From: a virus
DNA length: 64,000 bases
Strand: one strand, 5' to 3'
Virus record (IMG/VR): IMGVR_UViG_3300028895_000881
Span: 19,069-83,068 of that record
Shown: positions 9,642 through 21,711 of the stretch, in pieces
Layout of the letters: every line of letters begins with the position of its first letter
Numbering within the stretch: the stretch's first letter is position 1
Translations under genes and position numbers: made by a program
Notes under the pieces: generated by a model
What the model was told of the DNA's origin: nothing
The model's input: the letters and a program-made list of their open reading frames with translations, nothing else
The model's database searches: none

Positions 9642-11581
9642 AGCAGCGCCTTCGCTTCCTCGAGGCTGATCACCTCGACACCCAGGTCTCGAGCCTTCTT
9701 GGCCTTCCCGCTGGTGCTCTTGGGGTCCTTGGCGACGAGGTAGGTCAGCCCCTTCCCGACACTGCCCTTGACGGCACCCCCAGCGTCCTCGATCTCGGCC
9801 GCGAACGCCTTGTCTCGGATGCCGGTGAAGCAGAACGAGAGACCCGCCAGCTTGCCTCCAGACACGGGAGCCTTGACCTTGACGCCGGCCGCCAAGAGAT
9901 CGTCGATGACCTTCTTGCGGCGACGGAAACCGTCTACGAAGGCGACCGCCTTCGTCTCACCCACACCCGGGACTTGAGCGATGTCGCCCACGGAGGCGTC
10001 CTCCATCTTCTCGAGCGTGTCGATGCCTGCGTCTACGATGAACTTGCACATGGACTGTCCCCACAGGTCGATGCCCAGGGCTCCTACAAACTCATGTACG
10101 CGGAGCTCCATTTTCGCCCGAAGATTCTTCATGACCTTCTTGGCGGTGCTCTTGCCGACCTTCTTGCCGGAGAGCGTGACGGCGGCGAGCTTGTCCTCGT
10201 CGAGCCCGTAGAGGTCGGACACGGACTTGACCATGCCGTTCTCACACAGGGCCTCGATGAGAGTGTCGCCCCAGTCCTTGATGTCGAGCTTCTTGACCCA
10301 GCGCTTGATGGCGCCGCTCTGCTGTGCCGGGCAGCGAGCACTGTTGTCGCACAGCAGGTACTCGCCCTTCATCTTGAGGCGGTTGCCACAGGAGGGGCAA
10401 TCGTGGGGCACGGCGAAGCGGGCGTTCTTGGAAGGCGTCAGGACCTTCTCGACGTAGGGGATCACGTCGTTGCGACGGGACACCAGGATCTTGTCGCTGA
10501 GGCCCATCAGCTTCTGCGGGCTGTCGGCCGCGAGCCGGTGGATGTTGCTGACGTTGTGCAGCGACGCCTGACTCACGGAGGCACCCGCGAGCTCCACGGT
10601 GTCGAAGTAGGCCACCGGCGTCACGCGGCCGGAGTTGCCCACCTGCCACACGATCTCGCGGAGGCGAGTCGGCTGCTTCTCGTGGGGGAACTTGAACGCA
10701 CGAGCACCCTTGGGCCGACCGTCGTGCTCGCCCAGGTGCTCCATGACCGTGAGGTCGTCGTGCTCGACCACCAGACCGTCGATCTCGTAGTCGAGGCCGG
10801 CACGGGTGGTGTTGATGTAGTCCTGGTACATGGAAGCCACGCCCGAGGGCTTGACACGCTTCCAGTTGGGCACCGTGAAGCCCAGCGCCTTGAGCAGCTT
10901 GAACTCGACGCTCTTGGCCGTGATCGGATGCTGCCGGGAGAGCACCTGGTAGCAGACCACGGTGAGGTGCTTGCACGGATCGGCATCGGACTCGCGCTTG
11001 GCGATGCCGCTGGCTGCGTTGCGCGGGTTCTTGTACTCCGGAACGTGCTTCTGGTGGTCGGACTTCTTGAGGATGATCTCGCCACGGATGAAACCCGTCA
11101 GGTCACGGGCATCCTTGACGACGCCCTTCATCAGCAGGACGTTGCGGGTGATGTCCTCGCCCGTCTCACCGTCGCCGCGAGTGACCGCCTGGACCAGCTT
11201 GCCCTTCTCGTACTTGAGACTGATGCTGATACCGTCGAGCTTCTCGCTGACGACGAGATCGCGCTTGGCCTCCTCGAGATCACCGGCACGCTCGCCCTTG
11301 GCGATCTTGTCTTCGGTGTCCTTGGCCCACTTGTCGAACTCTTCCTGGTTCTGGACCTTGAGGAGGGAGCCCATCGGAGCGCCGTGCTTGACCTTCTTCC
11401 ACTTGGTCGTCTTGGTCTTGGCACCGACCTGCTTGAAGAAAGCGTTCTTGGGGTCCAGCTCCCGGAGCTCATCCTCGAGCGCGTCGTACTCGGCGTCCGA
11501 CATCACCGGGGCGTCGTTGTAGTAGGCGTCTCGGGCCTGCTGGAGCTGCTCTACAAGGTCTTGAATCTCACGGTCGCTCAT
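9638..11581 (-). CDS. ligA: NAD-dependent DNA ligase
   Basis: YYNDAPVMSDAEYD, EKLDG adenylation motif, TRGDG, RNAASG, DGLVV, WQVG..GRVTPVA, zinc finger CPSC...C...C, HhH repeats and C-terminal BRCT (FCFTG). Start could be 11596. Confidence 0.97.
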   Translation of the reverse strand: MSDREIQDLVEQLQQARDAYYNDAPVMSDAEYDALEDELRELDPKNAFFKQVGAKTKTTKWKKVKHGAPMGSLLKVQNQEEFDKWAKDTEDKIAKGERAGDLEEAKRDLVVSEKLDGISISLKYEKGKLVQAVTRGDGETGEDITRNVLLMKGVVKDARDLTGFIRGEIILKKSDHQKHVPEYKNPRNAASGIAKRESDADPCKHLTVVCYQVLSRQHPITAKSVEFKLLKALGFTVPNWKRVKPSGVASMYQDYINTTRAGLDYEIDGLVVEHDDLTVMEHLGEHDGRPKGARAFKFPHEKQPTRLREIVWQVGNSGRVTPVAYFDTVELAGASVSQASLHNVSNIHRLAADSPQKLMGLSDKILVSRRNDVIPYVEKVLTPSKNARFAVPHDCPSCGNRLKMKGEYLLCDNSARCPAQQSGAIKRWVKKLDIKDWGDTLIEALCENGMVKSVSDLYGLDEDKLAAVTLSGKKVGKSTAKKVMKNLRAKMELRVHEFVGALGIDLWGQSMCKFIVDAGIDTLEKMEDASVGDIAQVPGVGETKAVAFVDGFRRRKKVIDDLLAAGVKVKAPVSGGKLAGLSFCFTGIRDKAFAAEIEDAGGAVKGSVGKGLTYLVAKDPKSTSGKAKKARDLGVEVISLEEAKALL

Positions 11582-11689
11582 GGCTATCAGATGCACGGAC
11601 TCCCCGACCGTTTTACACAGCCAGGGGCAGAAATCGCCGAAAAGGCGGTTGGTCGCTGTTCTGGCCTCCGCGCTTTTTGCGCGGAAACG

Positions 11690-11977
11690 TCACTCTTCCA
11701 CAGGATCGGACAAGTTGGGTGTCGTCAGGTAAGACCCGTTACCGATGGTCCACGATACCTTGGTGAGCCATTCCTGGTCCTCGCAGGCGTTGAACAGGTC
11801 CTCCGACCGCAGGTAGTCGAAGACCTGGAGCCGCTCGGTACGAGCGGCCTGTTGCCACAGGCTGAAGAGCATCTCGACAACGGGCTGTTCTTTCTCGAGA
11901 GCCCGGTCGGTTCGCTCGGCACCAAAGACCTTGTCCAGCGCCTCGACGAATTTGTACGGGTAGTCAGACTCCGACAT
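11690..11977 (-). CDS. hypothetical protein
   Basis: 95-aa ORF overlapping the upstream gene end. Confidence 0.6.
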   Translation of the reverse strand: MSESDYPYKFVEALDKVFGAERTDRALEKEQPVVEMLFSLWQQAARTERLQVFDYLRSEDLFNACEDQEWLTKVSWTIGNGSYLTTPNLSDPVEE

Positions 11978-12554
11978 GTTCTGGTGGACTCTCCTTCACT
12001 GACGACTTCTCCGCGTCGTCCATGACCCACCAGTGCGTGTCCTGCTTGTCGAGGTTGTAGGGCGTGTGATTCTCATCATCGTCGTAGCTTCCATACCAGG
12101 GGCAGTTGCCGTTCACGGAGGTCTGGTTCCACCCCACGGCGCGCCAACCCTTCTCCTCGCGCTCCCCGTCGAGCTTGCGAAGGTAGTTGGCCTGCCGGTC
12201 GAGGTGGAAGACACGACCTTCGAGCGCAGGCTTGTACTCGGCGAAGAAAGTTTCCATCGCCTCGGCCACCTTGGCGAAGTTCTCGGCCTTCACCATCGCG
12301 CCATCACAGGTCGTCAAGAGCACGATGCGCTCCCAGGAGTTGAGGCGATCGGTCTTGAGCAGATCGAAGAGCTTCTTGTAGCCCTCCATCATGCCGCCAG
12401 TGCCGTCACCGTACTCGGGGACGTACTTGGCCGAGAGCGCCATCCACACGGCCATGCCACCGCCCCAAGAGTTAGAGATCTGGAAGACTTGATGGATGTC
12501 GCCATCGGCGCCCACGGGGAAGAGTTCAGTGTAGCTCACACCTTTTCTACCCAT
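11964..12554 (-). CDS. hypothetical protein
   Basis: 196-aa ORF with codon usage like its neighbours; alternative GTG start at 12539. Confidence 0.7.
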   Translation of the reverse strand: MGRKGVSYTELFPVGADGDIHQVFQISNSWGGGMAVWMALSAKYVPEYGDGTGGMMEGYKKLFDLLKTDRLNSWERIVLLTTCDGAMVKAENFAKVAEAMETFFAEYKPALEGRVFHLDRQANYLRKLDGEREEKGWRAVGWNQTSVNGNCPWYGSYDDDENHTPYNLDKQDTHWWVMDDAEKSSVKESPPEHVGV

Positions 12555-12599
12555 ATTTTTACGAAACGTAGAACAGGCCGTAGGAGGTGCCAGAGGAGC

Positions 12600-13127
12600 C
12601 TATTCGGACTGATCCCCGCCAAATTGCCGAAAGAACCGAGAGGCGCCCCCGGTGTCCCCGTAGGTGACCACAGGTGTGCCCTCTGGGCGGCTCTCGGCCC
12701 CGTAGGCCGACGCCCGGTTGCCCCCTTGGTCCTTCGAGCTCGAACGCTTCACGGCCCCTGTGCCGCTCGTGAGCTCGCCGCTCTGGCGGTCCAGGGACGC
12801 CACTGGACACTCAGGCTCGCACTCCCAGTCGGGGATGGTCCCCATGCCATCCTCATCGGCGTAGGTCATGTTGGGCATCGTCTTCTTCTCGGTCTCCGAG
12901 AAGATAGTCCGGCCGCCGCTGTTCTCTCGGTGCGCCGTCCCAGTGGGGACCTTCCGTTCGCCAACGATCTTGCACCCATCACGGTGCGTCAACATCACGT
13001 TCGGAGGCCATCTCTTCTTGTCCCCGATGCGGGCGGCATCAATGTTGAGCGCACCCGCTTCGTACTCCACGACGTTCCTCGTGGTGCTCCCCTTGAAGGG
13101 CTTTCGAGCGATGGTGATAACGCGCAT
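12600..13127 (-). CDS. stand-alone variable-region module of a phage amino-DNA methyltransferase (no catalytic or SAM motifs)
   Basis: ITIARKP...NVVEYEAGALNIDAARIG...RWPPNV...GASRFF matches the middle segment of phage N4/N6 MTases; paralogous to the N-terminus of 13127-14314. Confidence 0.75.
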   Translation of the reverse strand: MRVITIARKPFKGSTTRNVVEYEAGALNIDAARIGDKKRWPPNVMLTHRDGCKIVGERKVPTGTAHRENSGGRTIFSETEKKTMPNMTYADEDGMGTIPDWECEPECPVASLDRQSGELTSGTGAVKRSSSKDQGGNRASAYGAESRPEGTPVVTYGDTGGASRFFRQFGGDQSE

Positions 13128-14314
13128 CAGAGCTCGAACAAGTCCTCGACCCCGATGGGGCCTTCGTCCTCTTCTTCAGCCTTCACGTCGGAGACAATCT
13201 CGACCCCATCCCAAGCACACACAGCGCGGTCCCAATGCCGCACTCGCTGGTCCGCGATAGTCAAGTAGCTCTCGCTCTGCTCGATGCCGATGAAATCGTG
13301 CTTCGTGTGCAGGGCCGCGATACCCGTCGTCCCAGAGCCCAGGAAAGGATCGACCACCGGACCTTGATCCGTTGGGAGGTTTTGCAGGAGTGCTTGCATC
13401 ACCCCAACAGGCTTGACCGTCTCGTGGCTGTTCTGCACGAACCGACCCGTGGCTTCATCCTCATGCTGTTCGACTCCCGCGTGCCGTTCCTTACCCGAGG
13501 GCTTGGCGACGTAGTAGAAGTCATCCGGCTGATCGAGCAGCGCCACCGCGTCTCGGATCTCGTACCCGAAGTCCTCGACGGAGCACGCACCCGCGTAACC
13601 CGTGGGCTCATCTTCAGGAGAGATGAGAAGGAGGTGCGCTCCCGGACGAAGCACTCGGTCGAGCTCTTTCATGTAGGGTCCAGGGTCGCCCACCGTCACC
13701 ACCCCGTGCACGGTGCTGTCGTCGTACTCAGAGAAGCCCACGTCCTCGAGACTGTCTCCGACGATGAGCACGGGTTCGCAGCCGGGCGGCGGAGCGATGA
13801 GCGTATACAGGTAGTCCCAGAGCTCCTCGGGGAGATCGTTCATGGTGTTCCTCTGCGCTTGTTTGAAATACCGACCCTCGAGGGGGCCCAAGACCGTGTG
13901 CGGGCACCCTTCGGCGCACTCCCACATGAGGAGCTCCTCATCCGGGAACACTTCGGTCTCGAACTCATGACCAGCCCCCCCACCGAAAGGTTTGGCCCCA
14001 TCGACGAAACGGTTGATACTATAGCCCCCGATTGTTCGCGTTCCTCGAAGTTGACACCCAGGTCGGTGCATAAGGATCGCGTTCGCGGGCCAACGACCCC
14101 GTCGGTCACCGCCGCGAGGCCCGGGGGTTGCAGCGAAGTTGGTACTCCCACGCTCGGTGTACCGACGCGCCTGGCTCTCTTCCCCTTGACGTGATCCACC
14201 TTTGCCAGGGCGCAGCCTTGAGCCATCGATGTTCAACGCCCCAGCCTCGTACTCGACGACATTGTGCGTCGTCCCGCCTCGACACGGCTTGCGACTGACG
14301 GTGACGACCCTCAT
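13127..14314 (-). CDS. DNA methyltransferase SAM-binding subunit (variable module + degenerate catalytic half + intact motifs X/I)
   Basis: NSHETVKP and VVDPFLGSGTTG...FIGIEQ; degenerate motif IV (TVGDPGPY); RVLRPGAHLL and GYEIRD segments. Confidence 0.85.
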   Translation of the reverse strand: MRVVTVSRKPCRGGTTHNVVEYEAGALNIDGSRLRPGKGGSRQGEESQARRYTERGSTNFAATPGPRGGDRRGRWPANAILMHRPGCQLRGTRTIGGYSINRFVDGAKPFGGGAGHEFETEVFPDEELLMWECAEGCPHTVLGPLEGRYFKQAQRNTMNDLPEELWDYLYTLIAPPPGCEPVLIVGDSLEDVGFSEYDDSTVHGVVTVGDPGPYMKELDRVLRPGAHLLLISPEDEPTGYAGACSVEDFGYEIRDAVALLDQPDDFYYVAKPSGKERHAGVEQHEDEATGRFVQNSHETVKPVGVMQALLQNLPTDQGPVVDPFLGSGTTGIAALHTKHDFIGIEQSESYLTIADQRVRHWDRAVCAWDGVEIVSDVKAEEEDEGPIGVEDLFEL

Positions 14315-14532
14315 AGCCCCTTGATGCCCTCAAGGAACTCAGCCCGGTTGTAGCGGTTCCACAGGTCTTTCAAAACTTTGCCGCGCCAAACGATGATCTC
14401 GGAGTTTTGGACGATGCCGCCTGGAATGGGAGGCCACCCGTCAGCCGGCTGCACGTGAAGCGGAATGCCAGGGTCAGTCACTCGCCACGATCCACGAGCG
14501 CAGTAGTAGACGCGGTTGTCGTCCTCCATCAT
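14311..14532 (-). CDS. small hypothetical protein inside the MTase cluster
   Basis: ATG 14532 overlaps the upstream stop, and its own stop overlaps the next start (ATGA on both sides). Confidence 0.55.
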   Translation of the reverse strand: MMEDDNRVYYCARGSWRVTDPGIPLHVQPADGWPPIPGGIVQNSEIIVWRGKVLKDLWNRYNRAEFLEGIKGL

Positions 14533-16148
14533 GATGGCTTCCTCCCAACAACGACGGGCTCCCACGCGGGCTTGAGCGCAGTGCCGTACCCGTCCCAGAG
14601 TTTGGCTAGTTCCGTCGCCGGCACCGTGATCGGCACGTCCACCGCGACCTGCTTGGCCCCTGTGCCGTAGGCACCCACGCCCTTGCCACCTTCGTCGGTC
14701 GTCTTGCGGACATGCTTCTTGCCGCGCACGAGATCGTTGAGGTTGTCTCCTCCAACCCCACGCTTGTGGCCGATGACTTCTCGTGTGGCACCGGCTTGCT
14801 TGTCGATACGCTTCGAGATGTTCGTGGATTTTGGGAAGCCGCTGTTGCCGGTGATGAAAATACGACCATTACGCCGAGCGACGAAAGCACCCGTCGGAAC
14901 GCGCACACACCACACATTTCCTACGTATCGTTGCCGATCGTGTTTAGTAAGGTGACGCCGCTGAAGCTGTGTCTGTGGGTTCTCATGGAGACTCACACAG
15001 TTCTTCTTGTCATTGATACGTGCCTGCCAGCCCATCATGTGGACGAGGGTTTGATACCACTCCCGGTCTGCTGGATCTTTTTGATAGAACTGCTTGTTGA
15101 CTTCGGACCCATCCCCGCACAGGGCCGTCCACATGAACACGTCTTTCTCCTCCAGGGTCATGCGCCAGAGCAGGTCATAGGTGGGGTGTTTATTGGGAAG
15201 GTCCTTGCGCACACGATCGGCCACGTCACCCGTAAAGAACCACGTGTGCTCGACGTAAGGGCGCCCGCGATAGCTGCGCTCCCGGGTGTAATGCTTGTGT
15301 CCGGGCACGAGCCGTTTCAGGAGAGTATCGATCATGTCCACGTGTTCGTGACCTTCACCTCCGACGCGAGTGCTCTGGTAGATACGAACCCCGTTTCCAA
15401 TTTGGTCGAACCCACCTTCGGTCCAGATCCACGCGAGAAGTTCGGCGTAGTGCGGGGTCTCATCAAGACCCGGACCTTCGTGGTACCCCGATAAAGGAAG
15501 ATTAATGGGGTTCCATCTGTTGATCTCTGCGGCTTCTACCACCGACCAGCTAGGCTCAAAAAAAGCCACACGGATACCATCCTGCACCTGCCGGATACGG
15601 CTTCGTTTGTAGACCCGGTGGTTCGGCGTGAGCATCTGGTCCGTGTTGTCGTTCACGAAACACACCATTTCACCGTCAAAGGGCGCGAGCGTTTTCTCTT
15701 CCACGGGCATCAGTGTGAGGACCTCCGTGTTGGGGTCCCAGCACATAACACGTTCACCCTGTTGCACCTGAGTTCCGAGTTTCCACCCCATCTCAGTCAA
15801 GATTTCAGAAGACTCATCAAGGCACCCGTAGACCCATGCCTCGAGTCGCACATCCTCAAACTGAGCTTGCTTCACGGCTCGCACCATCTTGTGGAACGTG
15901 CGGGTCCCTCCAAAAGCTTTGATGATGCCGTCGGGTCGGAGCTTGGACTTGACCAGGTCCCAGAACTTCACATCGAAAGCAATTCCGGTCGCATCCCACT
16001 CCTTCCCCATGAACCCCTTGCCCGAGGACTGCGTGAGGTCGTAAGGAGGATCGCAAACAAAGGCGGCCACCGACCCGTCCTCGAGCTCTTCAAGCCGCTC
16101 GCGACAGTCTCCCAGCATCAGCCATACGTAGCGTTTCATGTCAGTCAT
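14529..16148 (-). CDS. DNA amino-methyltransferase catalytic N-terminal half, intein-containing
   Basis: LGDCRE, CDPPY (motif IV), FMGKEWD, AFGGTRTFH, WVYG/SGFPKS; ends GTALKPAWEPVVVGRKPS with no FxGxG motif. Confidence 0.9.
   Translation of the reverse strand: MTDMKRYVWLMLGDCRERLEELEDGSVAAFVCDPPYDLTQSSGKGFMGKEWDATGIAFDVKFWDLVKSKLRPDGIIKAFGGTRTFHKMVRAVKQAQFEDVRLEAWVYGCLDESSEILTEMGWKLGTQVQQGERVMCWDPNTEVLTLMPVEEKTLAPFDGEMVCFVNDNTDQMLTPNHRVYKRSRIRQVQDGIRVAFFEPSWSVVEAAEINRWNPINLPLSGYHEGPGLDETPHYAELLAWIWTEGGFDQIGNGVRIYQSTRVGGEGHEHVDMIDTLLKRLVPGHKHYTRERSYRGRPYVEHTWFFTGDVADRVRKDLPNKHPTYDLLWRMTLEEKDVFMWTALCGDGSEVNKQFYQKDPADREWYQTLVHMMGWQARINDKKNCVSLHENPQTQLQRRHLTKHDRQRYVGNVWCVRVPTGAFVARRNGRIFITGNSGFPKSTNISKRIDKQAGATREVIGHKRGVGGDNLNDLVRGKKHVRKTTDEGGKGVGAYGTGAKQVAVDVPITVPATELAKLWDGYGTALKPAWEPVVVGRKPS
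14844..15824 (-). mobile_element. intein in the methyltransferase (327 aa, divergent LAGLIDADG region)
   Basis: Starts CLDESSEILT, block B TPNHRV, ends FITGN followed by Ser+1; removing it restores WVYGSGFPKS. Confidence 0.9.
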
Positions 16149-17724
16149 TCAACCCCAGGTCAGGGACAGGCTGCTTGCTTTTCTTCTTCCACTTCTGCTT
16201 CTCATCGTCCTCACCGCCCTTCGCGTCCTTCACCTTCTGATCGATTTCCTCGATACTGGTGTTGTCAGTGAGCAGACGCCGGCAAGGGAATTCTACCCGC
16301 ACAGGGACGCGATCGAAGGGCTTTTGGTCGCGCGACTTGAGGCACTGGAAGATCGCGCGGTTGAGCTTGCGAAGTTCGTCGTCCACCCAGGACGATGTGA
16401 CGATGTCCGAGGAGCGCTCGGCCTCGTTCGCGTAGCTGAGGTGAGTGAGGTTGTACCGGCCGCCGTTCTTCTCGGCCGATCGGTAACCCTCACGACTGAT
16501 CTGAAAAAGCCCAACGACGGCGATGCCCATGCCTCGGTTGAAACCCATCGCCACCTGCTTGAGGTCCTTCATGACCTCGTTGAGCTTGTCGGTGGTGCTG
16601 CTGTACCGACCACGGGCATCCATCAGACCAAGGTGATCCACGAAGATGGTCGAGAACGGAGTCTTGGCGAACACGAGCTCGGCCTGCGATTGAAGGTCGT
16701 CAATCGTGAAATCCCGCTTGTCCGGGTTCTTGTTACGGATGTGGATGTCACCGTAGTCCTCTGCCTGCACCGCAGCAGGCCCTGTCGCCGGCACCGTAGT
16801 CTTCTTGTTGAAGTCGGGGACGACATATTCACGCAGGAACTGTTCTTCGGCAGGGCTGAGTGTCGCGGTCTTGATTTTGTCATAGTCGAGACCGATGTAG
16901 TCGATGCCAAGCTGCTTCCGAACGTCCCGGAACTTCTCATGCGCCGAGTGCATCGTGTAGATCAAGTTGCGCACCTGCACGTAGGGCATCTCGATCGAGA
17001 AGTAGACGGAACTCGAGCGGTAGTAGATGGCTTGCACGTAGGCCCAGTGAAGGGCGAAGGTAGACTTGAGGCCGCCGGTGTATGCGGTGTGCAGCCAGAG
17101 CTCATACTTCTTGGCACCCTTGAGCACCGAGTCGATCTGACTGATGCCGCACATCTGACCGATGCCGTAGAGAGGATCCGCCTTGATACGGTCGTAGCGG
17201 TCGAGGAAATCGTCCTCGTCCTGCATAAGGTTGCCGGACAACTTCGACCCCAAGGTAGGCGCGATGATGTCGTGGCTTCGGTCAAGAGCGTGACGCATCG
17301 CATCGATGGCGCCTTGGAGTTTTGTAGATTGCCCCTTGGTATCCTTGACTTCGATGCCCGTCTGGACGATCTGCGCCATCTCTTTGGCGAGGTCCATGAC
17401 GATGCGGTTGCGGCGGTCGGTCGCTTTCTCCTCGAGATAGGTGAGGAAGTCACCTCGCGTGCGAGGCTTGAGCTGCGCCACACGTTCGATGCGGTCCACG
17501 ACATCCACCTCGTGGACGGTCGTGAAGTGAGAGCGCACCGTTTGAACCTCGGGCACGTGCCCGTGGGACTTGAAGAAGTCCGTGATGAACTTCCAGATGA
17601 TGTTGTCCTCGGGGGTATCGAACCCAAGGCCGCTCTCGACGAGCGCGTGATAGTTTTGGGCAAAGAGCTCAGGCTGATCCGTCGTCGGGTCAGCCACAAA
17701 ACAGGACCGAAGAAGGTTCTTCAC
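16141..17724 (-). CDS. DnaB-like (SF4) replicative helicase
   Basis: Variant Walker A AYTGGLKST, YFSIEM, IFVDHLGLM, FQISRE, ERSSDIV. Confidence 0.88.
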   Translation of the reverse strand: MKNLLRSCFVADPTTDQPELFAQNYHALVESGLGFDTPEDNIIWKFITDFFKSHGHVPEVQTVRSHFTTVHEVDVVDRIERVAQLKPRTRGDFLTYLEEKATDRRNRIVMDLAKEMAQIVQTGIEVKDTKGQSTKLQGAIDAMRHALDRSHDIIAPTLGSKLSGNLMQDEDDFLDRYDRIKADPLYGIGQMCGISQIDSVLKGAKKYELWLHTAYTGGLKSTFALHWAYVQAIYYRSSSVYFSIEMPYVQVRNLIYTMHSAHEKFRDVRKQLGIDYIGLDYDKIKTATLSPAEEQFLREYVVPDFNKKTTVPATGPAAVQAEDYGDIHIRNKNPDKRDFTIDDLQSQAELVFAKTPFSTIFVDHLGLMDARGRYSSTTDKLNEVMKDLKQVAMGFNRGMGIAVVGLFQISREGYRSAEKNGGRYNLTHLSYANEAERSSDIVTSSWVDDELRKLNRAIFQCLKSRDQKPFDRVPVRVEFPCRRLLTDNTSIEEIDQKVKDAKGGEDDEKQKWKKKSKQPVPDLGLND

Positions 17725-18779
17725 TTGCGAAATCCTTTCTTCGCACCCCAGCTCCGTTTCTTCTTTTTGGACCCGTAGCGCTCTTTTTCAGCCGCCTTCT
17801 CTTCGTTAGCCATCAACGCCGCAAGCATGGGATCGGGCTCGTCCTCTTCCTCGTACTCCTCTTCCTCGTACTCCTCTTCCTCGGCGGCAGTAGTGGCGGC
17901 ACTGTCCTCACCCTCTGCACCCTCTTCCTCGTCAAGATCACTCAGCGCATTATCGATCTTCGTTTCGGCCTCGGGCTCCGTTTCGAGCAAATCGTCCGGA
18001 GACATATCCGAAACCATCTCCGGCTCTTCTTCGACCGCAGGACCGCTGAGCACTTTCACATGCACACCGGCAAGGCCGATGTGCCACCAGTGGCTCAAGA
18101 TGCTCTCGAGCTTTTCGCTGTACGCACGGTGCGACATGTCATCGATCCGCTGGTCAAGCTGGTCGATGATCCATGTAGGTTTCCCGATGTGCATCCGGGT
18201 CGTCACCGTCTCGAGCACACAGGAATAGAGCTCCTTGTTGGGCGTTTGCATCACGCCCAACTTGAGGATGAGCAGCTCAGGAGGCTCAACCAACTCGGCG
18301 ATATCCATCGCCATGAACTGGTTGTCATGGTTTTCGATCTCCGACTGATAGATCTTGTGCCCCTGCGCCTTAGCGGTCTTGAGCCAAGCGTCCGGCAGGT
18401 CTTTGTCCGTAATGACTCGAGCGTCCCACATCGTTGACTTCGAAAAAGCCAACGCTTTGAGGTGCGCGCGGAACACCACGTCTTTCGACGTAATCCAAAC
18501 GTTGTGGCCAACGAGGGGTTTCAGTGGAGGACGCTCACGCAGCCCAGGAATCTCCCGCGCTGCGGACAGTGACTTCCACATCCTCTCCATGTTCTGGAGC
18601 TTCAGTGCATCCATCATGCAGTGGCACGAGCGACCACCATCGAGCATGGACTCACCGTAGATAAAACCCAACCCGCCACAGTCCGGGCAGTTGGGGTCGG
18701 CGTACTCTCGGCTCACAACCCTTTTACCCTTCTCAAGCGTACTTGCGAGCGTCCGCTTGGAGGGCCGCGAAGATGTCAT
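17721..18779 (-). CDS. DnaC/DnaI-like helicase-loader-related protein with degenerate ATPase motifs and acidic tail
   Basis: N-terminal CPDC..CHC; ELLILKLG (Walker B-like), R...KPTWII; directly upstream of the helicase. Confidence 0.55.
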   Translation of the reverse strand: MTSSRPSKRTLASTLEKGKRVVSREYADPNCPDCGGLGFIYGESMLDGGRSCHCMMDALKLQNMERMWKSLSAAREIPGLRERPPLKPLVGHNVWITSKDVVFRAHLKALAFSKSTMWDARVITDKDLPDAWLKTAKAQGHKIYQSEIENHDNQFMAMDIAELVEPPELLILKLGVMQTPNKELYSCVLETVTTRMHIGKPTWIIDQLDQRIDDMSHRAYSEKLESILSHWWHIGLAGVHVKVLSGPAVEEEPEMVSDMSPDDLLETEPEAETKIDNALSDLDEEEGAEGEDSAATTAAEEEEYEEEEYEEEDEPDPMLAALMANEEKAAEKERYGSKKKKRSWGAKKGFRK

Positions 18780-21711
18780 CGATGCTGTTGTCCGAAGACA
18801 CCGTCACATCGCTCATACCTTCGCCCTTGAGGCGTTTGCCCATGACCGACTCGATCAGCTTCATCTTTGTACGAAGGACGCTCATCACCTTGGCGTCGAT
18901 GGTGCCACGTGCCACGAGGTGGATCGCATAGCAACGGTCATGGTCTGACCCGATGCGAATCATGCGGCCGAGAATCTGAAGGTAGTCTCCGGCCGACCAG
19001 GGGCTGTCGTAGAAGATGAGCGCCTTGGCCGCCTGGAGGTTGATCCCCTCCTTGGCAGCGTCCGTGATCCAGCAAATGCGCACGTCGGAGTCCGGTTTCT
19101 GGAACTCCTGCATCGCCGCCTTGCGCTGATTTTCGTCCTCGTCGCCAGTGATACGGACGGTCTTGAGTTTGTACTTCTTGCTGTGCGCGACTTCCTCGAG
19201 TTTGTCGATCATCTTGCGGAAACGACTGAAAACGATGACCTTCTCGTCCGCGAGATCCCCCTCGGTAAGGATCTCGAAAAGCTCCTTCATCTTGTCGCTG
19301 TCACCCTCGCAATCCACGAGCTCGGGGTGGTCCACGATCTGCTGGCAGTAGATCAACGAAGTCAGCTTCGTGGTCTCGACCTCCTCGTCCGTGCGATCCT
19401 TCTCCAGCAAACCCTCGAGCGCTTCACGGTACTTGGCCTCCTGCGCTTTCGTCATGCCGCAGTGATGCGTGTCGATCTGGAGCACCGGGAGCTCCTTGGC
19501 CACATCGAACTTCGCACGTGCCAAGAAGTAGGGGTCGATCTTGTCCTTGAACCGCGCGATCTGGTCCTTGCGGTATCCGATGATGACCGGGATTTGCCGG
19601 CGCGAGCCCGGGATGGGCTGCAAGCGCGTGAGACAGTACTCGTTCATGAACTTGCCCTTCGAGCTCGGAAAGAGCCCGGGGACGAGCAGCGAGTAGATGC
19701 CGTAGCCCTCGATTAGGTTGTTCTTGATCAGGGTTGCGGTGAGCGCCCAGAACCGGCTCGCGTTCCGAGACAGATGGCGCACCACCTTGTACGTCTGCGT
19801 GCTCGGGTTCTTGAATGCAGTGGCCTCGTCACACACGAGCACGAAGTCCTTCCAGTGCTGGAGGAACTTGATATCCCGACGTGCTGTCGCGTACCCCATG
19901 ATGAGGACGGTCGGCCCCTTGGCTGACTCGAACTCCTTGTAGATCTTCTCGCGCTTGGCCGGGGTGCCGACACAGGTGATGACGTTGATCTGGTCTGGCG
20001 TGCAGAACTTCTCGAACTCGAGTGCCCACTGACCGACGACCGACTTGTTGGTCAGGATGACGGCCTTCGCGTCGGGCTGCTTGGCCCACACGAAACACAG
20101 GGACGCGATGCTCTGAATCGTGTTGTGATTGACGAGCCCGTTACCCACAAAGGCGTGTCGAGGATCACGCACCTCCAAATCGAACACTTCTGCCCAACCA
20201 TCCTCGAGGGTTACGACTGGATCGTAGAACCACCGGCGTTCTAAAATTTCCTGAACCGCCGCGTACGCCGGGTTAAGCTCCGAAATCCCCACTTCGCGGG
20301 CAATCTCCAAAGCACGCTTCAAGTACTGGTACGTTGGATTGCGGCGACCGGCTCGGATGTGGCCCAGCGTGTTGTAGAACGCTGACCCCCACTTCTTGGC
20401 AATCCCTTCACCTTTGTAACCGTGACGTCCAGCGCGGGCGTAAATTTCGGCGCGAAGGTCTTCGATCTCCGCTTTGGCGTAGGGGACCACATCGAAATTC
20501 GGGTTGCTATTTTTCTCGACCAAAGAGGCCAGGGCCGAGATCTTGCGGCGAGAAACCAGGCCAATTTCACGCATGAGGCGACGAACGTCGTCTCCCTGAA
20601 TTTGAAGACGCCAGTAGACGTGGTCGTACCCCTCAACCATTTTTGGCAGCCTGCTCGTCACGATTCCAAAGGTCAGCAGCATCACCTGGATCTGACGCAG
20701 AAGTGTCTCCGATGCCGAGCTCACCTCCAAACCCAAACCGTTGGCATGTCCTTCCGCATCAAGATACCCCCGAAGGAATTGCCGCATGGAGGCCGGCGAA
20801 CTTTGAAGAACGGACCACGGCACTTCTTTGTCCTTGGCCACACCGGGCACCACTCCAATGGAGCGGAGAAACCGGATGACCTGAGTACTCGACAGCACGA
20901 ACCCAACATCTGTTGAGCGCATCTCGATCCCAAAAACTTGGGCCGCAAGGTCTGCCATGTCCGCGTAAACCTCGGGGTTCCGTTCAGCATGTTGACTCGG
21001 GCTGAAAAAATCGTGACGGCTGAACCAACTCTCGGCCACCAGATAACCCAGGAACCGAGCCAGCTCCGGAGACATTTTCACAGGAATCTGGTGTTTCTTT
21101 TCGTTAGAAGCGCCATGTCCCGGAGAAGGTAGAGCCGGCTCAGACCTGCCCTCCACCATCGCCGTCGATCCAGGGTCCCGATCCACGGCCACAAAATCTC
21201 CTTCTTGAAGATCCCGAAGACGCACCCACTGGTCCACCCCATCACGTCGCACCATGACAGGATGGATCTGAGACCCCTCCACTTCGTACCCACATCGCGT
21301 CACGACTCTGATGGTGGGTTTTTCTCCCCCGTAGTAGAAACGACCGATGTCGCACTGACTTTTCCCGAAATCGACCTGGAGATCTTCACTCATGGGAGCG
21401 AAGGTGTCGGGCTCATCAATGCCAGGGTTGAGATCCTTGATCGGGATCAAGCCACGCGAAGTCCGAATCAAAGTACTTCCAACGCAGCACTTCCCGATTC
21501 CGGTGTCGTCACCGAGCAGGAACCGGTTCATCGCCACCAGATGGAGGACACCCTGCACCTGGTAGTACCGAAGCTTGAAAGGCTTCTCTTCGCCGTCGAA
21601 CCCCGTGAAGGTCGTCTTGAGGAGCGGCGTGGGCTTCAGTGAAAGATCCGTGCGCTGGCGGATCTGCTTGAGCCGATCATGGGCTGCTTTGAGGCGCGGA
21701 TCTTGGGACAT
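18733..21711 (-). CDS. SNF2-family helicase/ATPase, intein-containing
   Basis: LRYYQ, LLGDDTGIGK/T, CDEAT, LTAT, KVIVFSRF, EGINLQ, YDSPW, QILGRMIRIG. Confidence 0.93.
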   Translation of the reverse strand: MSQDPRLKAAHDRLKQIRQRTDLSLKPTPLLKTTFTGFDGEEKPFKLRYYQVQGVLHLVAMNRFLLGDDTGIGKCCVGSTLIRTSRGLIPIKDLNPGIDEPDTFAPMSEDLQVDFGKSQCDIGRFYYGGEKPTIRVVTRCGYEVEGSQIHPVMVRRDGVDQWVRLRDLQEGDFVAVDRDPGSTAMVEGRSEPALPSPGHGASNEKKHQIPVKMSPELARFLGYLVAESWFSRHDFFSPSQHAERNPEVYADMADLAAQVFGIEMRSTDVGFVLSSTQVIRFLRSIGVVPGVAKDKEVPWSVLQSSPASMRQFLRGYLDAEGHANGLGLEVSSASETLLRQIQVMLLTFGIVTSRLPKMVEGYDHVYWRLQIQGDDVRRLMREIGLVSRRKISALASLVEKNSNPNFDVVPYAKAEIEDLRAEIYARAGRHGYKGEGIAKKWGSAFYNTLGHIRAGRRNPTYQYLKRALEIAREVGISELNPAYAAVQEILERRWFYDPVVTLEDGWAEVFDLEVRDPRHAFVGNGLVNHNTIQSIASLCFVWAKQPDAKAVILTNKSVVGQWALEFEKFCTPDQINVITCVGTPAKREKIYKEFESAKGPTVLIMGYATARRDIKFLQHWKDFVLVCDEATAFKNPSTQTYKVVRHLSRNASRFWALTATLIKNNLIEGYGIYSLLVPGLFPSSKGKFMNEYCLTRLQPIPGSRRQIPVIIGYRKDQIARFKDKIDPYFLARAKFDVAKELPVLQIDTHHCGMTKAQEAKYREALEGLLEKDRTDEEVETTKLTSLIYCQQIVDHPELVDCEGDSDKMKELFEILTEGDLADEKVIVFSRFRKMIDKLEEVAHSKKYKLKTVRITGDEDENQRKAAMQEFQKPDSDVRICWITDAAKEGINLQAAKALIFYDSPWSAGDYLQILGRMIRIGSDHDRCYAIHLVARGTIDAKVMSVLRTKMKLIESVMGKRLKGEGMSDVTVSSDNSIDDIFAALQADARKYA
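20122..21489 (-). mobile_element. intein with LAGLIDADG endonuclease in the SNF2 Walker A motif (456 aa)
   Basis: Starts CCVGSTLI after GIGK, ends LVNHN followed by Thr+1; FLGYLVAES and FLRGYLDAEG blocks. Confidence 0.93.

What the first reader, a model, noticed from the sequence alone, without database searches (positions are those of the whole stretch)
12600..16148. Three-gene split DNA methyltransferase with two alternative variable modules
Seen: gene A (14529-16148) has the catalytic DPPY motif but stops at ...EPVVVGRKPS with no SAM-binding motif. Genes B (13127-14314) and C (12600-13127) both begin at that same landmark (MRVVTVSRKP / MRVITIARKP) and continue with NVVEYEAGALNID...RWPxN...HxxGC...WECxxxCP...R(Y/F)F. 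Only B has HETVKP and DPFLGSGTT. All junctions are clean translational couplings, not frameshift debris. Established: in this common phage beta-class N4/N6 MTase family these segments lie in one polypeptide, and the middle segment is the variable, target-recognition-containing region. Inference: a multi-subunit MTase with a catalytic half, a SAM-binding half and two interchangeable, possibly Zn-binding (H/C/C/C) specificity modules. This could be a modular anti-restriction system, and the intein in A could add a splicing-dependent control.
Basis: partly seen in the sequence, partly recalled or inferred. Interest (0 to 1): 0.8.

Follow-up and report, generated by a model that had tools for sequence, protein, structure and literature searches.

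The report
Split phage DNA methylase kit
A giant uncultured phage encodes one DNA methyltransferase as separate, conserved genes (a catalytic piece, a cofactor-binding hub with a dead copy of the catalytic core, and two different DNA-reading pieces), a build-from-parts design that may let one enzyme mark several DNA motifs.

Summary
It missed a fourth gene: a conserved 73-aa ORF (X) between A and B.

- **A** is the N-half of a beta-class MTase (DPPY). It carries a 327-aa intein of the published Dorothy_75 family, at the same site.
- **B** is more than a SAM-binding half. It holds a TRD (T), a degenerate copy of the N-half core without DPPY (M), and the SAM-binding C-half (C).
- **C** is a free TRD.

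The same parts recur as separate genes on 19 other phage contigs. Each fetched stretch has one M-bearing hub gene, 1-5 N genes and up to 6 free T genes. Among 310 fetched relatives with a C-half, M and a cis N-half almost exclude each other (159 M only, 136 N only, 9 both, 6 neither). dN/dS is 0.10-0.43 for every piece.

Of 12 T-M-C genes, 9 keep a Met at the T/M joint, and all 9 have a Shine-Dalgarno core before it (background 16%). Exactly those 9 records hold free T genes; the 3 without the Met hold none. This suggests an internal start that makes a T-less hub for the alternative TRD.

Best reading: a multi-subunit, probably multi-specific MTase. The scan noted this kit before on at least 8 other genomes. 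I found no paper describing it.

The parts
15825..16148 (-). Gene A, N-extein (residues 1-108). It holds the N-half core of a beta-class MTase with GDC...DPPY (motif IV), up to ...EAWVYG. The start overlaps the dnaB stop by 8 nt.
   Evidence: The N model matches. PHROG 67 and 6025 'DNA methyltransferase' match residues 7-107. The PDB profile of N hits M.RsrI and CcrM at E about 7e-13.
14844..15824 (-). Intein in A (residues 109-435, 327 aa). It has Cys1, TPNH (block B), two LAGLIDADG-like motifs, and ends ...ITGN followed by Ser.
   Evidence: One search gives the coordinates. tblastn finds 122 phage records, 109 of them covering at least 80%; the best is 49% identity over 327 of 327 aa, E 1e-96, to Dorothy gp75. 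The insertion site is the same..YG|C...TGN|SGFPKS. The orthologues in L009, L089 and L169 have no intein. Pfam and PDB gave no hit.
14529..14843 (-). Gene A, C-extein. It runs SGFPKS..., then a variable stretch, then ...GTALKPAWEPVVVGRKPS and the stop.
   Evidence: It is 70-78% identical to the orthologues, with dN/dS 0.10-0.17.
14311..14532 (-). Gene X, a 73-aa conserved protein of unknown function. It is translationally coupled on both sides (ATGA overlaps) and has GGGAGGAAG 5 nt before its ATG.
   Evidence: There are 17 homologues, 56-85% identical and 72-84 aa long, with 20 invariant columns. X lies directly before the T-M-C gene in 3 of 3 loci that hold it (WIN, L252, L253). Pfam and PHROGs gave no hit.
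13862..14314 (-). Gene B, T part: an RKP strand plus a target-recognition module of the 'fused' lineage (residues 1-151).
   Evidence: It is 41% identical to Dorothy_75 residues 652-766. The fused T modules form one clan, 9 of 9 rows, support 95/99.
13841..13854 (-). Candidate internal ribosome-binding site (AGAGGA) and the ATG of Met158 inside B. Use of this start would give a 238-aa T-less M-C hub.
   Evidence: This is inferred, not shown.
13505..13843 (-). Gene B, M part (residues 158-270). It is a degenerate copy of the N-half core (RVLRPGAHLLL...EDFGYEIRDA) without a conserved DPPY.
   Evidence: BLASTP matches B 214-260 to Dorothy_75 134-178 (its N-half), 40% identity, E 9e-7. hhalign of M against N gives probability 80%, E 1.4e-5 over 36 columns. 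The motif-IV position is not conserved across 15 M domains.
13127..13504 (-). Gene B, C part: FYYVAKPSGKER, HETVKP (motif X), DPFLGSGTT (motif I), FIGIE, and a tail.
   Evidence: Pfam PF01555 matches residues 282-354 at 58 bits against a cut-off of 26.7. PDB hits cover only this part. Invariant residues are listed.
12600..13127 (-). Gene C, a free T module (175 aa). It has the RKP strand and TRD and ends after GGASRFF. The TGATG overlap couples it to B.
   Evidence: It is 69-70% identical to the free T of L169, with dN/dS 0.19-0.43.

Best explanation
The locus encodes a beta-class (DPPY, so probably N6-adenine) DNA methyltransferase made from separate proteins.

- **A**, after its selfish intein splices out, gives the catalytic N-half (motifs IV to VIII).
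- **B** gives the SAM-binding C-half (motifs X and I). This is held in a folded 'hub' by M, a stripped copy of the N-half core, and B also carries one recognition module (T).
- **C** is a second, different recognition module.

**Shown:** the parts, their homology to one single-chain enzyme family, their conservation as separate genes, and one hub per fetched kit stretch.

**Inferred:**
- N, T and the hub assemble into an active enzyme.
- B's own T and the free T of C give two target specificities.
- An internal start at Met158 of B makes a T-less hub that C can occupy.
- The product protects phage DNA from host restriction.

How N reaches the SAM site while M sits next to the C-half is not known.
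For: 1. **Complementary motifs.** A has DPPY and no motif I. B has motifs X and I and no conserved motif IV.
2. **Homology to a single chain.** Dorothy_75 carries N, T and C in one polypeptide. B matches it out of order: T at 652-766, M at 134-178, C at 794-879.
3. **Recurrence.** All 20 contigs with the kit (window included; L234 is the same contig as L009) have exactly one M-bearing hub gene in the fetched stretch. N genes number 1-5 and free T genes 0-6.
4. **M replaces a cis N.** Of 310 proteins with a C-half, 159 have M and no N, 136 have N and no M, 9 have both and 6 have neither.
5. **Fusions.** T-M-C 128, N-T 9, N-T-M-C 7, and one each of M-C-N and N-T-N-T-M-C among 380 proteins.
6. 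**Selection.** In the 22 comparisons where dS could be computed (of 23), dN/dS was 0.10-0.43.
7. **Free T family.** 58 of 380 fetched proteins are T-only. The search with C gave 5062 representatives at E <= 1e-3.
8. **Internal start.** Met is present in 9 of 12 T-M-C genes, and an SD core in 9 of those 9, against 540 of 3431 background codon positions. Free T genes occur in 9 of 9 records with the Met and 0 of 3 without, including the sister contrasts WIN/L253 against L252 and L244 against L229. Of 80 T-M-C proteins, 58 have Met within 3 columns of this position.
9. **Fold lead.** The Atlas model of a free M-C homologue aligns to whole MTase models over residues 12-236. This is a weak lead.
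Against:
- If M packs against the C-half as an N-half would, it occupies the place that A's DPPY strand needs. No mechanism for displacement or sharing is shown.
- M and N coexist in one chain in 9 proteins, so M is not simply a stand-in.
- The counts come from searches seeded with B, C and a fused relative, and the rows are related to each other. The 159/136 split and the 9/9 against 0/3 split are therefore not independent samples.
- The free T genes of L010's record are only short T-like ORFs (111 and 155 aa, model positions 2-78).
- Two of the three records that lack both the Met and free T genes are fragments (9% and 16% complete).
- The SD cores lie in Glu/Gln-rich codons, which favour GAG and AGG.
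- No listed run holding this DNA is on record as RNA.
Confidence: 0.62

Rival explanations
1. This is a genes-in-pieces enzyme with one specificity. Selfish elements (homing endonuclease genes, inteins) cut a single-chain methylase, and the pieces merely reassemble into the old enzyme. C and the other free T genes are spare or drifting copies with no separate role.
For: - The family is a hot spot for selfish elements. The window has the Dorothy-type intein.
- Inteins or insertions sit at the same N site in L010, L173, L193 and L181, and in the C-half of L009, L215 and L229.
- An HNH endonuclease gene lies between N and the hub in L009 (PHROG 3322, E 6.5e-29).
- The genes between N and the hub vary from 0 to 3.
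Against: - Free T genes are conserved (dN/dS 0.19-0.43; 12 invariant columns over 24 diverse rows).
- They form a lineage apart from the fused T, support 95/99.
- They occur in arrays of up to 6 beside a single hub.
- Their presence tracks the internal Met and SD of the hub gene.
Confidence: 0.15
2. The proteins do not form a methyltransferase. B is a pseudo-enzyme, a complete but catalytically dead fold that binds SAM and DNA. The free T proteins and A act as DNA-binding or anti-restriction decoys, or as regulators, without methyl transfer.
For: - M lacks a conserved motif IV and probably completes the fold of the C-half. B alone therefore looks like a dead enzyme.
- Degenerate partners are known in the class: MettL14 and MTA9, from passages of PMC7544214.
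Against: - DPPY is invariant in 13 of 13 free N proteins, and motif I is invariant in the hub (D322, F324, G326, S327, G328 in 99 rows). This is hard to explain if no catalysis takes place.
- N and hub genes co-occur on all 20 kit contigs, apart from the N/T array L195, whose hub, if any, is out of range.
Confidence: 0.13
3. The locus is decaying debris of duplicated methylase genes.
For: The strand ending in RKP is present three times (end of A, start of B, start of C). Pfam sees a domain only in B.
Against: - All frames are open and coupled.
- The same break points recur at 40-78% protein identity with dN/dS well under 1.
- X, N, T and M-C each form conserved families.
Confidence: 0.03

Closest known systems
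Single-chain actinophage orphan DNA methylases of the Dorothy_75 / PopTart_63 family (Gosselin et al. 2023, PMC9957025). I read the outline, results section 3 part 1, and passages.
   Same: The N, T and C segments are homologous (top tblastn hits). The intein is of the same 327-aa family at the same ..YG|C...TGN|SGFPKS site. Both families are hot spots for inteins and homing endonucleases.
   Different: Dorothy_75 is one polypeptide in the order N-T-C, with no M domain and no free T genes. Here N, T-M-C and T are separate genes. M is not the paper's 202-aa ShiLan domain: tblastn of M against the phage collection found 1 uncultured record and nothing in phage ShiLan, whereas the intein query did hit ShiLan.
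Beta-class amino-MTases that work as dimers with division of labour, or with an eroded partner: CcrM, M.EcoP15I Mod2, MettL3-MettL14, MTA1-MTA9 (Woodcock et al. 2020, PMC7544214; passages only).
   Same: The fold and motif order IV-TRD-I are the same. One partner carries an eroded motif IV, as M does here.
   Different: In those enzymes each chain is a whole fold, and the active chain holds both motif IV and motif I. Here motif IV and motif I lie on different proteins, and the recognition part can be a third protein.
Type I restriction-modification methylases with a separate specificity subunit (EcoKI M2S1). I saw the abstract of PMC3510504 in a search listing; the rest is recalled.
   Same: A separate, exchangeable specificity protein, with translational coupling of neighbouring genes.
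   Different: HsdM is a complete gamma-class enzyme and HsdS is unrelated in sequence. Here the recognition module is the excised TRD of the enzyme itself, and the catalytic fold is also divided. Homology to HsdS was not tested.
Naturally split or multispecific C5-MTases: M.AquI, M.EcoHK31I, and the Bacillus phage multispecific enzymes. The first two names appeared in papers listed; the details are recalled, not read.
   Same: One methylase made of two polypeptides, or several TRDs serving one catalytic core.
   Different: These belong to another class (C5) and have two fixed pieces or TRDs in one chain. None has a hub with a dead half-domain or arrays of free TRD genes.
Phage genes in pieces cut by homing endonuclease genes (Aeromonas phage Aeh1 nrdA-a/mobE/nrdA-b). 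Recalled; also named in earlier scan note e1-5808752.
   Same: In relative L009 an HNH endonuclease gene sits between N and the hub.
   Different: The window has no nuclease gene at the break. X matches no nuclease family. The break points are old and shared by many lineages.

Membership tests
Beta-class N6A/N4C DNA methyltransferase (Pfam PF01555 N6_N4_Mtase) | Motif IV (D/N/S)PP(Y/F) | tested here: met
   VCDPPYD in A. It is invariant in 13 of 13 free N proteins.
Beta-class N6A/N4C DNA methyltransferase (Pfam PF01555 N6_N4_Mtase) | Motif I FxGxG preceded by motif X (HPTxKP-like) | tested here: met
   HETVKP and DPFLGSGTT in B. PF01555 scores 58 bits against a cut-off of 26.7.
Beta-class N6A/N4C DNA methyltransferase (Pfam PF01555 N6_N4_Mtase) | Motifs IV, TRD and I in that order in one polypeptide | tested here: not met
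   Motif IV is in A and motif I is in B, with gene X between them. A alone has no Pfam hit at E <= 0.1.
Beta-class N6A/N4C DNA methyltransferase (Pfam PF01555 N6_N4_Mtase) | SAM-dependent methylation of DNA | not testable with these tools
   Needs expression and methylome reading.
Dorothy_75-type actinophage methylase family (PMC9957025) | Sequence homology of the N, T and C segments | tested here: met
   BLASTP of B against Dorothy_75 gives E 1e-19 (T), 5e-12 (C) and 9e-7 (M against the N-half).
Dorothy_75-type actinophage methylase family (PMC9957025) | Collinear single-chain architecture | tested here: not met
   The order in B is T, then an N-half-like segment, then C. A and C are separate genes.
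Intein with LAGLIDADG homing endonuclease (the Dorothy_75 intein) | Cys or Ser at position 1, TxxH block B, C-terminal Asn, and a nucleophile at +1 | tested here: met
   C109, TPNH, N435 and S436.
Intein with LAGLIDADG homing endonuclease (the Dorothy_75 intein) | Penultimate His | tested here: not met
   The intein ends ...ITGN. Dorothy's intein also ends ...ITGN, so this is a trait of the family.
Intein with LAGLIDADG homing endonuclease (the Dorothy_75 intein) | Homology to a described intein, at the same insertion site, and absent from some orthologues | tested here: met
   49% identity over 327 of 327 aa, E 1e-96. The site is the same. The N genes of L009, L089 and L169 have no intein. 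Pfam and PDB sequence searches found nothing.
Intein with LAGLIDADG homing endonuclease (the Dorothy_75 intein) | Protein splicing | not testable with these tools
   No experiment was possible.
Genes in pieces made by a homing endonuclease gene | A free-standing nuclease gene at the break | tested here: not met
   In the window, X has no Pfam or PHROG hit. The feature is met only in relative L009 (PHROG 3322).
Modular split MTase kit (N / T / M-C) as defined here | Free N ending in the RKP strand; T starting with the RKP strand and ending at SRFF; one hub with M before the C-half | tested here: met
   The window reads N | X | T-M-C | T. The same parts occur on 19 other contigs.
Type I R-M specificity subunit (HsdS) | Homology to HsdS TRDs | not tested
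   Offered only as a functional analogy.

The most novel reading that the evidence does not exclude
This is a hub-and-spoke, combinatorial DNA methyltransferase. One SAM-binding hub, kept soluble by a dead copy of the catalytic core, accepts exchangeable catalytic halves and exchangeable DNA-reading modules. In this phage a conserved internal translation start inside B (Met158 with its own Shine-Dalgarno) makes the empty hub, so that two specificities (B's own T and C) come from one operon. Relatives with up to 6 free T genes and 5 N genes would then methylate many motifs with a single cofactor-binding protein.
Probability: 0.35. Interest if true: 0.85.

Novelty: new variant of a known kind. 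Interest (0 to 1): 0.74.

Why it matters
DNA methyltransferases of this class are treated as single chains or as dimers of whole chains. An enzyme whose catalytic loop, cofactor site and DNA reader sit on separate, exchangeable proteins would be a new way for phages to widen their protection against restriction systems. It would also be a natural scaffold for building methylases with chosen specificities.

The dead half-domain in the hub poses a clear structural question: how is an active site shared between chains? The kit is common in large uncultured phages, and I found no description of it in four literature searches. The internal-start prediction can be tested with simple constructs.

Tried and rejected
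**Searches that found nothing useful**
- Megablast of 12000-17000 against phage records: no match.
- Pfam on A, C, X and the intein: no family at the thresholds used.
- PDB sequence searches: none for the T profile or for the intein. The M profile hit only designed alpha/beta proteins and weak class-I MTase stretches.
- Promoter and terminator scan of 11500-19000: no more sites than shuffles give.
- Sequencing runs: no RNA holder listed.

**Weak or uninformative results**
- Atlas neighbours of the T-M-C homologue P0315 were uninformative.
- Contigs of 4 runs laid on 11900-16400 showed identical low-depth pieces. One short joint (14244 to 14546, side 24, contigs with 6 mismatches in 44) probably comes from a single-chain relative in another organism. 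I draw nothing from it.

**Ideas considered and dropped**
- M as the ShiLan domain of PMC9957025: rejected (lengths 113 against 202 aa).
- M as a working variant of motif IV (G[DN]PxP[HY] in close relatives): rejected, because the position is not conserved in 15 wider M domains.
- Simple circular permutation by tandem duplication as the origin of T-M-C: this would give T-C-N, not T-M-C, so I left it open.
- A mirror-tree test of N against the hub: not run, because linked genes share history anyway.

**Limits**
- dS is near saturation, so the dN/dS values are rough; one of the 23 comparisons could not be computed.
- I did not ask for supplementary files. The alignments of PMC9957025 may show more on insertion sites.

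Full report
**What is in the window**

The window is part of an 83,068-bp IMG/VR virus record that CheckV rates 16% complete, so it is a fragment of a very large phage. Five genes on the minus strand follow each other with overlaps:

| Gene | Coordinates | Size | Notes |
|---|---|---|---|
| dnaB | 16141-17724 | 527 aa | overlaps the start of A by 8 nt |
| A | 14529-16148 | 539 aa | |
| X | 14311-14532 | 73 aa | ATGA overlaps with A and with B |
| B | 13127-14314 | 395 aa | |
| C | 12600-13127 | 175 aa | TGATG overlap with B |

A has DPPY, ends EPVVVGRKPS and has no motif I. B and C start MRVVTVSRKP and MRVITIARKP and share the NID / RWPxN / H..C / C...C / RFF framework. Only B has HETVKP and DPFLGSGTT.

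It lies directly before the B-type gene in all 3 loci that hold it (window, L252, L253). No library names it.

**The intein**

Residues 109-435 of A (nt 14844-15824) are an insertion relative to the orthologues in L009, L089 and L169. It starts with Cys, has TPNH and two LAGLIDADG-like motifs, and ends ...ITGN before Ser.

- Pfam and PDB sequence searches were blank.
- tblastn against phage records found 122 records, 109 covering at least 80% of it. The best hit is 49% identical over all 327 residues (E 1e-96), in gp75 of Mycobacterium phage Dorothy.
- That is the 327-aa intein described by Gosselin et al. 2023 (PMC9957025; I read the outline, results part 1 and passages).
- Dorothy gp75 has it at the same site..WLYG|C...ITGN|SGFPKS.

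The intein is a known selfish element with a patchy distribution. I see no sign of a control function.

**What B is**

Single-chain phage methylases match B in two pieces, residues 4-125 and 236-358, and skip the middle. Of 571 phage records, none covers 80% of B. A search of 5.8 billion proteins gave a large family that covers 99% of B and always starts at the same MR(V/I)VT..RKP.

Aligned with Dorothy gp75, B is out of order:

| B residues | Dorothy gp75 residues | Segment | Identity, E |
|---|---|---|---|
| 4-113 | 652-766 | TRD | 41%, 1e-19 |
| 266-358 | 794-879 | C-half | 35%, 5e-12 |
| 214-260 | 134-178 | N-half core, just before the intein site | 40%, 9e-7 |

A profile comparison of 15 such middle domains (M) with 13 free N-halves agrees: probability 80%, E 1.4e-5 over 36 columns. 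So B consists of T, then M, then C. M is a copy of the N-half core. The DPPY position in M is not conserved: GDPGPY here, but GEPTDE, GTKADE and RGVGDA in others. M also lacks the SGFPKS...EP....RKP second part of N.

Stand-alone M-C proteins exist (31 of 380 fetched). Most of them start, after 0-5 leading residues, at the point of B's Met158.

**The family picture**

I scanned the six-frame ORFs of the 248 loci then held plus the window, loci L252 and L253, and the 380 proteins then held.

Proteins by architecture (380 in all):

| Architecture | Count |
|---|---|
| N-T-C | 129 |
| T-M-C | 128 |
| T | 58 |
| M-C | 31 |
| N-T | 9 |
| N-T-M-C | 7 |
| T-N-T-C | 6 |
| T-C | 6 |
| T-M | 2 |
| T-N-C, T-N-T, N-T-N-T-M-C, M-C-N | 1 each |

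Among the 310 proteins with a C-half, 159 have M and no N, 136 have N and no M, 9 have both and 6 have neither.

Of the 80 viral loci found with the T alignment (L169-L248):
- 57 hold a single-chain N-T-C gene;
- 15 hold an M-bearing hub with separate N and/or T genes;
- 8 are other forms, such as an N/T array without a hub in range (L195) or N | T-C (L199).

Together with L009, L010, L089, L252, L253 and the window, 20 different contigs carry the kit. L234 is the same contig as L009, and the pairs L176/L177, L182/L186 and L188/L189 have identical layouts. Each contig has one hub gene in the fetched stretch.

Example layouts:
- L188: N | T | M-C
- L182: T | N | T | N | N | T | N | M-C
- L215: six T, then M-C, then two N
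- L089: N, T-M-C, then five T
- Window: N | X | T-M-C | T

The window's layout, N followed by T-M-C followed by free T, is shared by L009, L089, L169, L193, L244 and L253. The genes between N and the hub vary: none, X, an HNH endonuclease (L009; PHROG 3322, E 6.5e-29), or a conserved ORF with a TAT-like signal.

A fused N-T-M-C exists in one clade (L010 and P0270-P0275) and in P0119. The L010 form keeps both RKP strands and the joint Met, so it looks like a secondary fusion.

**Are the pieces in use?**

NG86 dN/dS against the orthologues in L009, L089, L169, L193 and L244:

| Piece | dN/dS |
|---|---|
| B's T | 0.15-0.27 |
| M | 0.18-0.30 |
| C-half | 0.14-0.43 |
| Gene C | 0.19-0.43 |
| A's C-extein | 0.10-0.17 |

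This covers 22 of 23 comparisons. One had no computable dS, and dS is near saturation throughout.

Free T proteins from 24 different clusters share a fixed start, a fixed end and 12 invariant columns, including H, C, C, C. In a tree of 23 T modules, the 9 fused ones form one clan (support 95/99). The window's C sits among the 14 free ones, nearest the free T of L169 (69% identity), not next to B's own T. B's T and C are therefore old paralogues kept side by side.

**A possible internal start**

B has Met158 at the T/M joint, preceded by AGAGGA with a 5-nt spacer.
- Of 12 T-M-C genes in hand, 9 keep a Met there.
- All 9 have GGAG, GAGG or AGGA at -16 to -4, although the peptides differ. The background is 540 of 3431 other in-frame positions, 16%.
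- Of 80 T-M-C proteins in alignment A5, 58 have Met within 3 columns; the overall Met frequency is 2.2%.
- The 9 loci with the Met all have free T genes. For L010 these are two short T-like ORFs 8-12 kb away.
- The 3 without the Met (L187, L229, L252) have no free T anywhere in their records, one of which is 619 kb and 92% complete.
- Two of these contrasts are between close relatives: WIN/L253 against L252, and L244 against L229.

I read this as a hint that a T-less hub is translated from inside B and takes C as its reader. It is a correlation among related sequences, not a proof.

**How it may work, and what is open**

Motif IV is on one protein and motifs X and I are on another, and both are invariant in their families. 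An active site therefore needs A and the C-half of B together.

M most likely completes the fold of the C-half in cis:
- it is almost exclusive with a cis N;
- it is homologous to the N-half core;
- the Atlas model of a free M-C homologue aligns to whole methylase models over residues 12-236, 150 aligned, TM 0.43-0.49. This is a weak lead.

That leaves unexplained how A's DPPY strand gets next to the SAM site. Two ideas are that A displaces M, or that the assembly resembles a swapped dimer.

Beta-class enzymes are known to work as dimers with division of labour or with an eroded partner (PMC7544214, passages). In those cases, however, each chain is a whole fold.

**Comparison and novelty**

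The closest described family is the single-chain Dorothy_75 group. It shares the segments and the intein but not the split, the M domain or the free T genes.

Four full-text searches found no paper on a beta-class methylase divided in this way. The library misses most subscription journals.

Earlier notes of this scan describe the same kit on at least 8 other genomes, and two notes cover this same stretch. I reached the module picture before reading them.

I class the finding as a new variant of a known kind of enzyme.

Noticed in passing
G000:C1 about 15600-16496, outside the window (L251:970-1866, minus strand): A second, complete single-chain beta-class methylase of 298 aa (VVTDPAY ... DPFAGSGS) lies about 2.6 kb before the window's start. 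It is unrelated to the split kit.
   Followed up: partly
window 18733-21711 (-): The 992-aa SNF2-type helicase ORF seems to carry an intein-like insertion: GKC|CVGST... to ...VNHN|TIQS in the translation.
   Followed up: no
L009:5672-6196 and L009:7001-9559: In this 213-kb relative an HNH endonuclease gene (PHROG 3322) sits between N and the hub. The hub gene itself holds an intein inside the HP|TCKP motif X.
   Followed up: partly
L009:6206-6997, L252:5007-5720, L253:5278-5994: A conserved 237-263-aa ORF with a twin-arginine-like N-terminus (M..RR.FLQMLG.GG) lies between N and the hub in three relatives. It is absent from the window. The only family match is a weak TAT_signal hit.
   Followed up: partly
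L089:7507-10103; L215:5001-7785; L182:5001-9179: Large arrays occur beside a single hub: five free T genes after the hub (L089), six before it (L215), and three T interleaved with four N (L182). The N copies differ most in the stretch between SGFPKS and the final RKP strand.
   Followed up: partly
L010:3974-5029: Inside the intein-bearing N gene of L010, a 351-aa ORF in another frame has Cys-rich repeats and an HNH-like end. It may be a nested nuclease gene.
   Followed up: no
window 11964-12554 (-): The 196-aa gene after C (PHROG 19610, unknown function) keeps its place after the free T gene in L009 as well (10241-11242).
   Followed up: no
window 13127-14314 (-): The protein collection holds a 266-aa product of this same DNA that starts at Met130 of B (P0001). 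Gene callers therefore disagree on B's start. I did not treat this as evidence.
   Followed up: no
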